Shown: positions 46,776 to 49,792 of the stretch, in pieces
How the letters are laid out: every line of letters starts with the position of its first letter
Numbering within the stretch: the first letter of the stretch is position 1
Sequence record: OK272489.1
Reading direction: 5' to 3' (one strand)
DNA from: Escherichia phage JLBYU19
Length of the DNA stretch: 49,897 bases
Notes under the pieces: model-generated
Told to the model about the DNA's origin: nothing
Database searches by the model: none
The model's input: the letters and a program-made list of their open reading frames with translations, nothing else
Program-made: the position numbers and the translations under genes

Positions 46776-46783
46776 TAACAAAA

Positions 46784-46810
46784 AGCCCCGCATATGCGGG
46801 GCTTTTTTTA
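46784..46810. terminator. bidirectional terminator between ssb and leftward fiber cluster
   Basis: AGCCCCGC-atat-GCGGGGCT hairpin flanked by A5 and T7. Confidence 0.7.
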
Positions 46811-47314
46811 TTCTAACGTGGTTGGTTTGTTTACCAGTGCCGCTACAACCGCTTTTAGCTCGTCAATTTCTTTTCTCATCTCATCGTTTTCCGCTTTCAG
46901 TTTCTTAACGTGGTGAATCAGTGGAACAGTGAGGCGGTCATACATAACGCCTTCCGCCACCATGCCATTACTTGAAGCAATGGCAGGATCTTCTCCTTCT
47001 TGCAGCGGTCGCCAGTGAACGTACTCCGGCGCAATTTCTCCAACCTCTTCCGCGATTAGCCCGTACCATCCCCAATCTTTACGGTCGCTTTCACAAGTTG
47101 ACCGATACCAAACAGGACGCATTTCAAGCATCAGATCCGCATATTCATCAATAACCGATTCTACGCTGCTCTTATAACGAGAAGAGGAAGTGGAGCGTAA
47201 AACTTGCGACACTCCAGCATTTGGATCAAGCCATAAGTTTGCTGATTGAGCGGTTGTGTTAAGATTAAATAAATAAAATGCATCGTTACCAGTTAGGGGG
47301 GTAAAAACTCCCAC
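46808..47314 (-). CDS. tail-fiber C-terminal chaperone-like domain protein (peptidase S74-like)
   Basis: 168 aa from GTG 47314; SSRYKSSVESV ... DWGWYGLIAEEVGEIAPEYV resembles auto-processing chaperone domain of tail fibers. Confidence 0.45.
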   Translation of the reverse strand: MGVFTPLTGNDAFYLFNLNTTAQSANLWLDPNAGVSQVLRSTSSSRYKSSVESVIDEYADLMLEMRPVWYRSTCESDRKDWGWYGLIAEEVGEIAPEYVHWRPLQEGEDPAIASSNGMVAEGVMYDRLTVPLIHHVKKLKAENDEMRKEIDELKAVVAALVNKPTTLE

Positions 47315-47546
47315 TATACCTTCCGCTACCCAACTCGGATGATAGATCAGTTTGTTTTAGATACAGCTTCAACTTATTGTCAACATCAGTAGTTGATGCT
47401 TTTCCTGCGACATCCTGTTTTAGTGTCGAAACATCACTTTTCAGCTTCGTTATATCACCAGGAATAGTAGCAACATCCTGTTTTAGTGTTGAAACGTCAT
47501 TTTTCAGCTTCGTTATATCACTAGGTATAACAGTGACTGTAGCCAT
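47286..47546 (-). CDS. tail fiber-like coiled-coil repeat protein (possible upstream part of split fiber gene)
   Basis: 86 aa; two 21-aa repeats DITKLKxDVSTLKQDVA; overlaps next ORF by 29 nt in another frame. Confidence 0.45.
   Translation of the reverse strand: MATVTVIPSDITKLKNDVSTLKQDVATIPGDITKLKSDVSTLKQDVAGKASTTDVDNKLKLYLKQTDLSSELGSGRYSGSFYPPNW
47411..47526. repeat. tandem direct repeat, 2 x 63 bp
   Basis: CATCCTGTTTTAGTGTCGAAACATCACTTTTCAGCTTCGTTATATCACCAGG repeated with few substitutions 63 bp apart; encodes 21-aa repeat. Confidence 0.6.
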
Positions 47547-47558
47547 TTTCCTAACTCC

Positions 47559-47837
47559 TTAAGCCCATTCTCTAATAGGCTGATCTAACTCAACCACGTA
47601 TCCATTAAAAATTACGGCATCAAACTTATCATCAATGATTCGCACATTAACGAAATAGCCGTCGTTCTTTCGCGCAATCTCCTCGCCATCGTCAGATCGT
47701 GCAATTACTGTATAAGTATTGCCGATTACATCGAGCAGGATTGCATCCTGAATGGATTCGTTATCATCCCAATTAATTTTTCCTAAAAAGGCCGAAAACT
47801 CGGCCTTGTCTGAAAATTTTAATGTTAAATCACGCAT
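47559..47837 (-). CDS. hypothetical protein
   Basis: 92 aa from ATG 47837 (TAATG overlap with fiber gene stop). Confidence 0.4.
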   Translation of the reverse strand: MRDLTLKFSDKAEFSAFLGKINWDDNESIQDAILLDVIGNTYTVIARSDDGEEIARKNDGYFVNVRIIDDKFDAVIFNGYVVELDQPIREWA

Positions 47838-49792
47838 TAAACAATTTCCCCCAATTGATGATCTGTTAGTGCCTTGTGCCATATACGGAAGTTTCTAACG
47901 TGCCCGAAAAGATGACGTTCTCCCGTAGTTGTTTGTCCGCCAATCCTTATAGTAGCCGTCGATCTTATGTATCTCCATTCCGCTTTTGATTCGCTTGATA
48001 TTATGGAATTACTTACACAACAAGTATTGTAATCACTCTTTACTCTCATTCCCATGATCATCTTTTTTAGTTTCGCATTCTCGTAAACCCTTCGGTTTGA
48101 GTTACCTATGTCGCAACAAGGGAATCCGTCATTATCGCCTTCGGCAGACCCGAAAGCAAGAATTATTGCCGCTCCGGTTTGATGGCCGGATGTATCAAAA
48201 ACACGTGGCGCAGCGTTTGGCGTTATACTCCAGTTTTTATGAGCTTCCACAAGCACTGTAAACGGCAAATTGTAAAGGTTGTTTTTTATTGGCAATGTAA
48301 CCATATCGCTTGCCCTTGTTGTCGGACTTTCATTAGTTATAATGAATGATGAAGCGCAAGATCCAACCTCTACTTGAGGAGTTGTTAAATCCATAAAGCT
48401 ATTTTCATCAAAAACTTCTCCTTGTTTATTAACGACCTGTATTACCCCCCTAATGGAAGTTGATTCATCAGTAACTTTGTAAACTATTTCTGCAAAAATC
48501 CATTCCCCGTCTATGGTAGCGTTCTTTAGCACTATGTTTTTTGCGTCAACTCCAGAAGTTGCCACCCCTAAGTTATCGCAATCAATAATAGCAGAAGCAA
48601 CAGAAGATAAAGGATCTCCCTTGTCAAATCTTGCTGCAAATCTTACATTTTTCCCCTTAGCCCTAAAAGATATTGTAACTCCATCACCCTTTACAACTGC
48701 AATCTTATTTGTAGTAAGTCCAGCTATAATAGTGTAAGAGCCTACGCCACCTAAATATTCCCCTGGTTTAAATGTTGCATACTTAAACCCCCTTTCATCA
48801 GTCTTAGTTTCACCTCTTTCTAATCTTGGATTTGGATTCCATGATTCAGGCTTATTTGAATTTACAAAATAGTTTGTTCTCTGCCCTTCAATCAAAAGAC
48901 CATCCTTTTCAAATCTAGGTTCATCAATAGCAGCATCAGTAAGCAACCCAGACTTATTAATGTAAGTAGCGGTTGATGCACGTTTAAACTTAACAATCTT
49001 GTCACCTGGCATCGTGATCTCATCATCACCTATGACAATCTTTTTGTATGACGGCGAGAATCCGGTGATCATATCCAGGGAATCATTAAATGGTATCCAC
49101 ACGTCAGGTAGAGGCTGCAATAAATCTTTGTAAGGTTCTGCGGCCTGTTTTGCGTATTCCTCCGCTTGATCTCGCGCACTTTCAGCGCCTGCCTTTGCGG
49201 TGTTCGCAGCATCACGCGCAGTTTCAGCGCCTTTTCTTGCAGTTTCAGCGCCAGTCTTTGCAGTGTTTGCAGCGTCGCGCGCGGATTCAGCGGCAGCCTT
49301 TGCAGTGTCAGCACCTTTCTTGCTATTCTCTGCATTTGTTGCGCTTGTCTTTGCGTTATTCTCGCTAGTTTTAGCTGCCTTCTGGCTTGCTGCGGCTGCG
49401 TCAGCATTTGTCTTTACGTCTTCCTGGATCTTCTGTAGCTTATCCCAATCAAAATCCTTGATGATCTCAATAAATCCAGCAAACTCCGATTCCTTCCCCT
49501 GGTAATAACGCAACGTTTCCGCTACGTCTTGCGCAAGACCGTCAACCGTTAACGAGTCATGAAGCAAGATCAGGTAATTTGTCTTCTGTACTACCGCGCC
49601 TCCAGTAGTAATTGCGCGAATGCTTGTATCGCTAATCACTTCTGTAATCACAGCAGCTTGCAAAGGTTGAGCAAGAAAGAAAATAGTTGCACCTGGGCGA
49701 ATCAAGGTTAATTGCTCACGCCATTTTGTACCGTAACCAGTTACATAACCTTGCGCGTCCATAGACGCTTGGCCTTGTCTGTAAATCGCCAT
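47837..49792 (-). CDS. tail fiber protein
   Basis: 651 aa from ATG 49792 (AGGAGG RBS 9 nt upstream); Ala-rich repeat region TAKAAAESARDAANTAK. Confidence 0.65.
   Translation of the reverse strand: MAIYRQGQASMDAQGYVTGYGTKWREQLTLIRPGATIFFLAQPLQAAVITEVISDTSIRAITTGGAVVQKTNYLILLHDSLTVDGLAQDVAETLRYYQGKESEFAGFIEIIKDFDWDKLQKIQEDVKTNADAAAASQKAAKTSENNAKTSATNAENSKKGADTAKAAAESARDAANTAKTGAETARKGAETARDAANTAKAGAESARDQAEEYAKQAAEPYKDLLQPLPDVWIPFNDSLDMITGFSPSYKKIVIGDDEITMPGDKIVKFKRASTATYINKSGLLTDAAIDEPRFEKDGLLIEGQRTNYFVNSNKPESWNPNPRLERGETKTDERGFKYATFKPGEYLGGVGSYTIIAGLTTNKIAVVKGDGVTISFRAKGKNVRFAARFDKGDPLSSVASAIIDCDNLGVATSGVDAKNIVLKNATIDGEWIFAEIVYKVTDESTSIRGVIQVVNKQGEVFDENSFMDLTTPQVEVGSCASSFIITNESPTTRASDMVTLPIKNNLYNLPFTVLVEAHKNWSITPNAAPRVFDTSGHQTGAAIILAFGSAEGDNDGFPCCDIGNSNRRVYENAKLKKMIMGMRVKSDYNTCCVSNSIISSESKAEWRYIRSTATIRIGGQTTTGERHLFGHVRNFRIWHKALTDHQLGEIV

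What the first reader, a model, noticed from the sequence alone, without database searches (positions are those of the whole stretch)
47411..47526. Tandem 63-bp direct repeat inside the fiber-like gene
Two almost identical 63-bp units encode the 21-aa repeat DITKLKxDVSTLKQDVA. Such repeats can expand or contract by slipped-strand events and alter fiber shaft length.
Basis: seen in the sequence. Interest (0 to 1): 0.35.

Follow-up and report, generated by a model that had tools for sequence, protein, structure and literature searches.

The report
Heptad duplication in broken tail-fibre gene
The 63-bp tandem repeat is real and adds three extra heptads to the coiled-coil stalk of a small accessory tail-fibre protein of a T1-like coliphage; its copy number differs among close relatives, but in this genome a one-base insertion downstream has broken the gene.

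Summary
Two 63-bp units lie head to tail at about 47406-47531, read on the minus strand. They are 86-91% identical, and chance expectation is about 3e-16. Each unit encodes 21 aa, which is three canonical heptads (D-I/V-x-x-L-K-x).

The window is a Warwickvirus (Drexlerviridae) coliphage. In relatives the repeat lies at the N-terminus of one 224-245-aa gene. That gene has a coiled-coil stalk, a short beta region and a C-terminal Peptidase_S74 self-cleaving chaperone domain. It is the last gene of a conserved cassette: lateral tail fibre, then a ~90-aa protein, then this protein.

Copy number does vary. About 41 distinct phage records carry alleles with 3, 4 or 6 heptads, and more distant homologues have up to 9. 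Two different one-copy junction types suggest at least two separate 63-bp events.

This +1 frameshift splits the gene into 86-aa and 168-aa ORFs. At least 12 of the 41 records carry inactivating lesions at nine different sites, while no broken copy of the longer fibre gene upstream was detected.

This is an ordinary kind of polymorphism in a poorly studied protein. Interest is low to moderate.

The parts
47406..47531 (-). Tandem array of two 63-bp units. Unit 1 is 47469-47531 and unit 2 is 47406-47468. Each encodes 21 aa, which is three heptads of a coiled coil.
   Evidence: TRF; the repeat finder; in-frame comparison; helix 9-47 in the AF2 model.
47286..47546 (-). 5' fragment (86-aa ORF) of the gene for the small coiled-coil protein with an S74 domain. 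It ends at a premature TAA after four out-of-frame codons.
   Evidence: the ORF listing; alignment with the intact genes of tunzivis, XY3 and tonn.
47296..47301 (-). C6 homopolymer (G6 on the + strand) where intact alleles have C5. This +1 insertion breaks the reading frame.
   Evidence: Alignments. The same C6 occurs in orkinos and AV105.
46808..47295 (-). 3' part of the same gene, now out of frame with the start (listed as a 168-aa ORF from a GTG at 47314). It encodes the beta region before the S74 domain, the STSSSRYK Ser/Lys motif and the Peptidase_S74 intramolecular chaperone domain with its C-terminal helix.
   Evidence: Pfam PF13884; profile hit to the C-terminus of chain 8hqz_d ('L-shaped tail fiber assembly'); Foldseek hits to MyRF ICA 7dc3 and the endosialidase chaperone 3gw6; invariant S118 and K125.
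46780..46807 (.). GC-rich hairpin flanked by A and T runs. It looks like a bidirectional terminator between ssb (+) and the S74 gene (-).
   Evidence: scan_promoters_terminators.
47559..47837 (-). Gene for a ~92-aa protein (phrog_1361, function unknown). It always lies between the fibre gene and the S74 gene.
47837..49792 (-). Lateral tail fibre gene (651 aa), first gene of the cassette. No broken copy was detected in the relatives.
   Evidence: PHROG tail and tail-fibre families; NCBIfam spike fibre domain; tblastn.

Best explanation
The repeat is a tandem duplication of three heptads (21 aa) in the N-terminal alpha-helical coiled-coil stalk of a small accessory tail-fibre protein. By homology, the protein trimerises with the help of its C-terminal Peptidase_S74 intramolecular chaperone domain, which then cleaves itself off at a Ser/Lys dyad. 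That would leave a trimer of about 12 kDa per chain, made of an N-terminal anchor motif (MATVTxIPxDIT), the coiled coil and a short beta tip. The coiled coil tolerates in-frame gain or loss of whole heptads. Unequal recombination or replication slippage between the near-identical 21-bp and 63-bp units produces alleles with 3, 4 or 6 heptads in this phage genus. Each 63-bp unit would change stalk length by about 3 nm. In this particular genome a C5-to-C6 insertion 105 bp downstream of the array truncates the protein after residue 82 and removes the S74 domain. The gene is therefore most likely inactive, and the repeat is a passive remnant here. Shown: the repeat, the heptad pattern, the allele series, the frameshift, S74 homology and the conserved cassette. 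Inferred: trimer state, autocleavage, position on the virion, length effect and loss of function.
For: The repeat is real and far beyond chance.

Heptad register: position a is I/V in 6 of 6 heptads and position d is L/I in 5 of 6, with D at g and K at e. Weak but consistent sequence hits go to the coiled coils of Lpp, the P22 gp26 needle and fibritin. AF2 models a continuous helix over residues 9-47.

S74/ICA domain: Pfam PF13884, profile hit to the C-terminus of the tail-fibre chain 8hqz_d at E=2.8e-8, Foldseek hits to 7dc3 and 3gw6 and many viral ICA proteins. S118 and K125 are invariant in STSSSRYK.

Allele series in 47 phage records: 735-nt, 693-nt and 663-nt matches, read as 6, 4 and 3 heptads. 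Hanrivervirus relatives have 4 versus 3 heptads, prophage homologues 5-6, and a 268-aa homologue 9.

Two one-copy junction types exist: tunzivis VIPS-DITKLKN and tonn NIPG-DITKLKS. Orthologous copies differ less than paralogous copies (0-6 versus 6-9 differences of 63), so the 2-copy allele is shared by descent.

Frameshift: C6 versus C5.

The cassette is conserved in Drexlerviridae, a lambdoid phage and E. coli prophages.

Heptad-multiple length variation in prophage side-fibre coiled coils is a published precedent (PMC3368898).
Against: No experiment or multimer model shows that the N-terminal region is a trimeric coiled coil. The combination of a=I/V and d=L favours dimers in designed GCN4 peptides (my own recollection of the literature, not checked here). 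One heptad per unit contains Pro-Gly (DVATIPG), which could kink or interrupt the helix.

The AF2 monomer model has only moderate confidence over the repeat (pLDDT about 66-78) and low confidence for residues 61-119.

The position of the protein on the virion is unknown. The BASEL annotation calls it a 'putative lateral tail fiber chaperone', so it might not be a structural component at all.

The C6 run could be a homopolymer sequencing error in this assembly, in which case the gene would be intact.
Confidence: 0.75

Rival explanations
1. Loss or switching of this gene is the selected trait. The C-tract, and perhaps the repeat array, would act as a hypermutable contingency locus, or knockouts would be positively selected during isolation and propagation, as with the stf frameshift of laboratory lambda. 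The repeat would then be one of several mutable sites in a gene that is turned off and on.
For: At least 12 of about 41 distinct records are broken at nine different sites. The lesions are C5 to C6 (orkinos, AV105 and also this window), GAG to TAG (tuinn), TAC to TAA at the same codon in two divergent alleles (EC195 and JLBYU07; EC125 is counted from its identical hit statistics and split annotation and was not read), GGA to TGA (Phunderstruck), +CC (JLBYU10), single-base deletions (ityhuna, brachmannus, SECphi27), and a 13-bp deletion exactly at the junction of the two repeat units (KMB46). The upstream fibre gene is 2.6 times longer, yet tblastn aligns it in one piece under a fibre annotation in essentially all of these genomes. 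A preprint reports phage contingency loci and the highest homopolymer density in Warwickvirus. The lambda PaPa stf frameshift is a precedent.
Against: Most lesions are ordinary point mutations, not repeat-mediated and not readily reversible. The intact-state tract is only C5, and it is not conserved at synonymous sites in more distant homologues (CCT CTG, CCA CTA, CCG CTG). There is no obvious link between lesions and isolation host. Some single-base indels may be sequencing errors; brachmannus is an UNVERIFIED record. Relaxed selection on a dispensable gene explains the pattern without any switching.
Confidence: 0.25
2. The C6 run is a programmed +1 ribosomal frameshift site, or a transcriptional slippage site. 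The 86-aa and full-length products would both be made by design, and the repeat would belong to a functional short coiled-coil protein.
For: A +1 slip of tRNA-Pro on CCC-CCU would restore the downstream frame exactly (read directly from the sequence). Three genomes share C6.
Against: Most relatives encode the protein in one frame with C5, and several have no C-run at all. There is no stop or rare codon directly after the slip site and no recognisable stimulatory element. Other relatives are broken elsewhere by nonsense mutations, which shows that disruption is tolerated.
Confidence: 0.04
3. The duplication, or the frameshift, is an assembly or sequencing artefact of this record.
For: Short tandem repeats and homopolymers are classic sources of assembly and base-calling errors. 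This window has no identical record in the phage collection (best match 98.8-99.0%).
Against: The two-copy allele, with the same copy-specific substitutions, occurs in at least 11 phage records besides this window, deposited by several groups. The unit is only 63 bp, well within a read length. For the repeat the artefact reading is effectively excluded. For the C6 run it remains possible, but the same state is reported in orkinos and AV105.
Confidence: 0.05

Closest known systems
Peptidase_S74 / intramolecular chaperone auto-processing (ICA) domain proteins: phage K1F endosialidase, T5-type L-shaped tail fibres, MyRF
   Same: The C-terminal ~120 aa match PF13884, the C-terminus of the tail-fibre chain 8hqz_d, and the 7dc3 and 3gw6 folds. 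The Ser...Lys motif is conserved. The gene sits in a tail-fibre cassette.
   Different: The protein is very small (224-245 aa). The part that would remain after cleavage (~120 aa) is mostly a heptad coiled coil, not a long beta-helical or beta-structured fibre or spike. It is encoded as a separate gene after a fibre that has its own distal domain.
PCoil domains of prophage side-tail-fibre (EPcl) proteins of E. coli O157 (PMC3368898)
   Same: Both are coiled-coil segments in E. coli phage or prophage side-fibre proteins whose length differs between alleles by multiples of seven residues. PCoil was shown to trimerise.
   Different: PCoil is Ala/Ser-rich (AxxA/SxxS) and lies in the large fibre protein. 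That type is present here in the neighbouring fibre gene (49176-49312). The repeat under study has classical I/V-L heptads and lies in the small S74 protein.
Trimeric coiled-coil phage fibres: P22 gp26 tail needle, T4 fibritin
   Same: Heptad-based alpha-helical stalks of phage fibre proteins. There is weak direct sequence similarity over the repeat.
   Different: No homology beyond the coiled-coil pattern. The trimerisation and folding devices differ (foldon or needle tip versus a cleavable S74 domain).
Lambda PaPa stf frameshift (Hendrix and Duda 1992, as cited in PMC12617516)
   Same: A side-fibre module gene of a siphophage is inactivated by a single-base frameshift in laboratory stocks, and the fibres are dispensable on K-12.
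   Different: In lambda the main side-fibre gene is the one hit. Here no broken fibre gene was detected, and only the small downstream gene is repeatedly broken.

Membership tests
Peptidase_S74 / ICA-domain tail fibre proteins | C-terminal domain matching PF13884 and the ICA fold | tested here: met
   Pfam scores 22.3 bits against a cut-off of 22 on the 168-aa fragment, which is marginal. It is backed by the profile hit to 8hqz_d at E=2.8e-8, Foldseek 7dc3 at E=3.8e-4 with probability 1.0 and 3gw6, and 49 viral matches at E no greater than 0.001, many of them named ICA or Peptidase S74 proteins.
Peptidase_S74 / ICA-domain tail fibre proteins | Conserved Ser-Lys catalytic dyad at the cleavage site | tested here: met
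   In the motif STSSSRYK, S118 and K125 are invariant and S120 and S121 are at least 90% conserved across 25 homologues. Which serine is the nucleophile was not determined.
Peptidase_S74 / ICA-domain tail fibre proteins | Trimerisation-dependent autoproteolytic release of the domain | not testable with these tools
   This needs protein expression with SDS-PAGE or mass spectrometry. No multimer prediction was available.
Alpha-helical coiled coil (heptad repeat) | Seven-residue periodicity with hydrophobic a and d positions over several heptads | tested here: met
   Six consecutive heptads have a=I/V in 6 of 6 and d=L/I in 5 of 6. Length differences among homologues in the coiled-coil region are multiples of 7 aa.
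Alpha-helical coiled coil (heptad repeat) | Helical conformation and oligomeric supercoil | tested here: inconclusive
   The AF2 monomer predicts a helix over residues 9-47 at pLDDT about 66-78. Oligomer state was not modelled, and there is a Pro-Gly in the third heptad of each unit.
Phage contingency locus (hypermutable simple-sequence repeat giving reversible frameshifts) | Homopolymer or repeat tract maintained by selection, with frequent reversible length changes | tested here: not met
   The intact-state tract is only C5 and is replaced by synonymous non-run codons in tonn, ityhuna, KarlJaspers, PhiR49_1 and the prophage homologues. Most inactivating lesions lie outside repeats. Within-population heterogeneity could not be tested.
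Tandem-repeat copy-number polymorphism | Different copy numbers at the same locus in close relatives, with clean unit-length indels | tested here: met
   There is an exact 63-bp gap in tunzivis, tonn, ityhuna and brachmannus and a 42-bp gap in the four-heptad class, against otherwise 95-99% identical flanks. Allele classes were tabulated from 47 records.

The most novel reading that the evidence does not exclude
The small S74 coiled-coil protein is an accessory branch or adaptor of the lateral tail fibre, and its loss is actively selected, or switched, when these phages are isolated and propagated. That would explain why about 30% of sequenced Warwickvirus genomes carry independent knockouts while the adjacent, longer and far more variable fibre gene looks intact in all of them. 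On this reading the heptad-number variation tunes the reach of this accessory element in the wild.
Probability: 0.25. Interest if true: 0.45.

Novelty: new member of a known kind. Interest (0 to 1): 0.27.

Why it matters
The practical consequences are modest. First, automatic annotation of this genus splits or mislabels this gene as 'hypothetical protein' x2, 'chaperone of endosialidase' or 'tail fiber protein'. The comparison here shows that it is one gene with a defined allele series, and that it is a pseudogene in this genome. Second, the protein offers a compact natural series (3, 4, 6 or 9 heptads on the same anchor and the same S74 domain) for testing how stalk length affects a fibre accessory. 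Third, the contrast between an apparently always-intact, fast-diverging fibre gene and a conserved but frequently broken downstream gene suggests that laboratory isolation may select against this accessory protein. That is relevant when such phages are used for host-range work or therapy.

Tried and rejected
- Programmed +1 frameshift at the C6 run: rejected. Most relatives are in frame with C5, and more distant homologues have no run.
- Assembly artefact for the duplication: rejected. The same two-copy allele with the same copy-specific substitutions occurs in at least 11 other phage records.
- Recent, genome-specific duplication: rejected. Orthologous copies are closer than paralogous ones. 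Only orkinos and tuinn show a small patch in copy 2 that now matches copy 1 (AAT GAC), possibly gene conversion.
- The plus-strand ORF 47377-47562 (61 aa) over the repeat is the antisense shadow of the real gene, and no relative annotates it.
- The IMG/VR scan found only 3 loci and added little.
- A single-sequence search of PDB sequences gave only weak coiled-coil hits. The profile search was needed to reach the tail-fibre chain 8hqz_d.
- The AF2 monomer left residues 61-119 unmodelled, so the nature of the mature tip is unresolved.
- Literature searches found no paper that characterises this protein. The BASEL paper discusses the Drexlerviridae lateral tail-fibre locus only in general terms, and the name 'putative lateral tail fiber chaperone' comes from the BASEL phage GenBank records.
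- I could not polarise the direction of the events (duplication, deletion, or unequal crossover between tunzivis-type and tonn-type one-copy alleles).

Full report
**1. Observation**

- Tandem Repeats Finder reports 47410-47529, period 63, 1.9 copies, 91% matches, no indels.
- The repeat finder reports two 60-nt copies (47407-47466 and 47470-47529) at 90% identity with 63-nt spacing.
- The coding strand is minus.
- In frame, unit 1 is codons 6-26 (47469-47531, VIPSDITKLKNDVSTLKQDVA) and unit 2 is codons 27-47 (47406-47468, TIPGDITKLKSDVSTLKQDVA). They match at 54/63 nt and 18/21 aa.
- The binomial expectation of such a match anywhere in the window, at any lag up to 500, is about 3e-16. Among periods of 12-399 bp it is the best tandem match of any period above 13 bp.

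**2. What the gene is**

The window is 96-99% identical here to Escherichia phages of the genus Warwickvirus (Drexlerviridae, Tempevirinae), such as tuinn, tunzivis, orkinos, swan01, tunus and XY3.

In this window the repeat lies in an 86-aa ORF (47286-47546, minus). That ORF overlaps a 168-aa ORF (46808-47314, minus) in another frame. Alignment with relatives shows that the two are one gene. Tunzivis, tonn and XY3 encode a single protein of 224 or 245 aa.

The window has TTTTTACCCCCCTAAC where intact alleles have TTTTTACCCCCTAAC. This is a +1 insertion in a C-run at 47296-47301. Removing one C gives a 245-aa protein, 98% identical to database protein P0001 and to the XY3 product.

The C-terminal half is a Peptidase_S74 intramolecular chaperone (ICA) domain.
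- Pfam PF13884 matches the 168-aa fragment.
- A profile of 25 homologues hits the C-terminus of PDB chain 8hqz_d, named 'L-shaped tail fiber assembly', at E=2.8e-8.
- The AF2 model (pLDDT about 90 over residues 130-240) matches the MyRF ICA domain 7dc3 and the endosialidase chaperone 3gw6. It also matches many viral ICA proteins.
- The motif STSSSRYK contains an invariant Ser and an invariant Lys.

The gene ends an operon-like cassette: lateral tail fibre (651 aa, 47837-49792), then a ~92-aa protein (47559-47837, phrog_1361), then this gene. A hairpin terminator at 46780-46807 is shared with the convergent ssb gene.

The same three-gene cassette occurs in several other places:
- the Hanrivervirus phage KarlJaspers;
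- the lambdoid phage PhiR49_1 after Stf, with 44%, 52% and 57-58% protein identity for the three products;
- E. coli prophages next to the integrase, and a 60-kb contig.

In PHROG 3299 the whole protein aligns to the last ~240 positions of a 1385-position profile. Its first 26 residues alone match the N-termini of two other PHROG families, one of them a tail-fibre family. That pattern would fit a conserved N-terminal anchor.

**3. What the repeat encodes**

From residue 10 the protein reads DITKLKN DVSTLKQ DVATIPG DITKLKS DVSTLKQ DVAGKAS. These are six heptads with I/V at position a (6 of 6) and L/I at position d (5 of 6), with Asp at g and Lys at e.
- Weak sequence matches go to trimeric coiled coils: Lpp, the P22 gp26 needle and fibritin.
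- AF2 models residues 9-47 as one helix.

So the 63-bp unit is a triple heptad. At about 1.5 Å per residue, 21 aa add about 3 nm to the stalk (inference).

A trimeric state is inferred from the S74 family and was not tested. The Pro-Gly in each third heptad is a caveat.

**4. Copy number among relatives**

tblastn finds the gene in 47 phage records, about 41 of them distinct. Match lengths, and the sequences I read, give three allele classes in Warwickvirus.

| Class | Protein | Heptad pattern | Phages |
|---|---|---|---|
| 6 heptads | 245 aa | two 21-aa units | window, XY3, JLBYU01, tunus, SLUR29, tuinn, EC195/125, orkinos, AV105, SECphi27, KMB46 |
| 4 heptads | 231 aa | DITKLKN DVSTIKQ DVSTLKQ DVAGKAS | Phunderstruck, JLBYU16/38/07/10, BEBK14, PeterMerian, Jahat, MatMar, WaterSpirit, BabyEgg, one IMG/VR contig |
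| 3 heptads | 224 aa | one unit | tunzivis, tonn, ityhuna, swan01, JK16, G3B1, tinuso, Tuinin, ExeQuayColi, MartyMcPhage, brachmannus |

Heptad number also varies further out. The Hanrivervirus phage KarlJaspers has 4 heptads and the related phage morffagbaw has 3. Prophage homologues have 5-6, and a 268-aa homologue has 9.

Two different one-copy junctions exist. Tunzivis keeps the 5' end of unit 1 (VIPS-DITKLKN). Tonn and ityhuna keep a unit-2-like sequence (NIPG-DITKLKS) that matches what a crossover at the other end of a SECphi27-type array would give. This suggests at least two independent 63-bp events.

Within two-copy genomes the paralogous units differ at 6-9 of 63 positions, while orthologous units differ at 0-6. 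The duplication therefore predates these genomes.

The direction of the events cannot be decided from these data. The options are duplication, deletion, or unequal crossover between two diverged one-copy alleles.

Length variation by multiples of seven in coiled-coil segments of E. coli prophage side-fibre proteins has been described before (PMC3368898).

**5. The gene is broken here and in many relatives**

Orkinos and AV105 share the window's C6.

Other relatives carry different lesions:
- tuinn has GAG to TAG;
- EC195 and JLBYU07 have TAC to TAA at the same codon, on different allele backgrounds;
- Phunderstruck has GGA to TGA;
- JLBYU10 has a +CC insertion;
- ityhuna, brachmannus and SECphi27 have single-base deletions;
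- KMB46 has a 13-bp deletion exactly at the junction of the two repeat units.

That makes at least 12 of about 41 distinct records, at nine different sites. EC125 is counted from its identical hit statistics and split annotation and was not read. Records I did not read were taken as intact from a one-piece match under a single annotated gene.

By contrast, the 2.6-times longer fibre gene upstream aligns in one piece under a fibre annotation in essentially all these genomes, although it is only 60-98% identical. tblastn can read through a stop codon, so nonsense mutations in the fibre gene were judged only from the annotation.

The S74 gene is 89-98% identical among the Warwickvirus records.

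According to the BASEL study, Drexlerviridae lateral fibres probably bind O-antigen and are not needed for host recognition (PMC8594841). Laboratory lambda carries a frameshift in stf (PMC12617516).

The simplest reading is that this accessory gene is dispensable, and perhaps disadvantageous, under isolation conditions.

A designed contingency tract is unlikely. The run is only C5 when intact and is not conserved in more distant homologues, and most lesions are not repeat-mediated. A programmed frameshift is rejected for the same reasons.

**6. Verdict**

The thing itself is a familiar kind: a heptad-number polymorphism in a phage fibre coiled coil, attached to a known S74 chaperone domain. 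It sits in a small protein that nobody appears to have characterised.

In this genome the repeat lies in the 5' remnant of a frameshifted gene.

The most interesting by-product is the recurrent, independent inactivation of this gene across the genus. It deserves a proper test but is not established here as adaptive.

Noticed in passing
window 47296-47301 (minus-strand C6): A one-base insertion in a C-run splits the S74 coiled-coil gene into 86-aa and 168-aa ORFs. The same C6 is present in orkinos and AV105, while most relatives have C5.
   Followed up: yes
relatives: L002, L007-L013, L016, L018 (the same gene as window 46808-47546): At least 12 of about 41 distinct phage records carry inactivating lesions in this small gene at nine different sites. 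These include the same TAC-to-TAA change in two divergent alleles and a 13-bp deletion at the repeat junction in KMB46. No broken copy of the 2.6-times longer fibre gene upstream was detected.
   Followed up: partly
window 49176-49312: There is a second repeat of period 63 bp (76-78% identity, with a nested 21-bp period) inside the lateral tail fibre gene. It encodes Ala/Ser-rich heptads (AKxxAExAR...) of the 'PCoil' type and is annotated as repeat_region in orkinos, tunzivis and tunus.
   Followed up: partly
window 47559-49792 and 46808-47546; L019, L020, L021, L022: The three-gene cassette (fibre, ~90-aa phrog_1361 protein, S74 coiled-coil protein) is shared between virulent Drexlerviridae, the lambdoid phage PhiR49_1 and E. 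coli prophages. It appears to be a mobile side-fibre module that takes the place of stf-tfa.
   Followed up: partly
window 47837-49792: The lateral tail fibre protein is only 60-78% identical between phages whose downstream S74 gene is 89-98% identical. The fibre gene diverges or recombines much faster than its neighbour.
   Followed up: no
window 46780-46807: A 12-bp-stem GC-rich hairpin flanked by A and T runs lies between the convergent ssb gene and the S74 gene. It is probably a bidirectional terminator.
   Followed up: no
L001 and L002 (orkinos, tuinn), unit 2 of the repeat: In orkinos and tuinn, codons 37-38 of unit 2 read AAT GAC as in unit 1, where other genomes have AGT GAT. This could be a short gene-conversion patch between the repeat units.
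   Followed up: no
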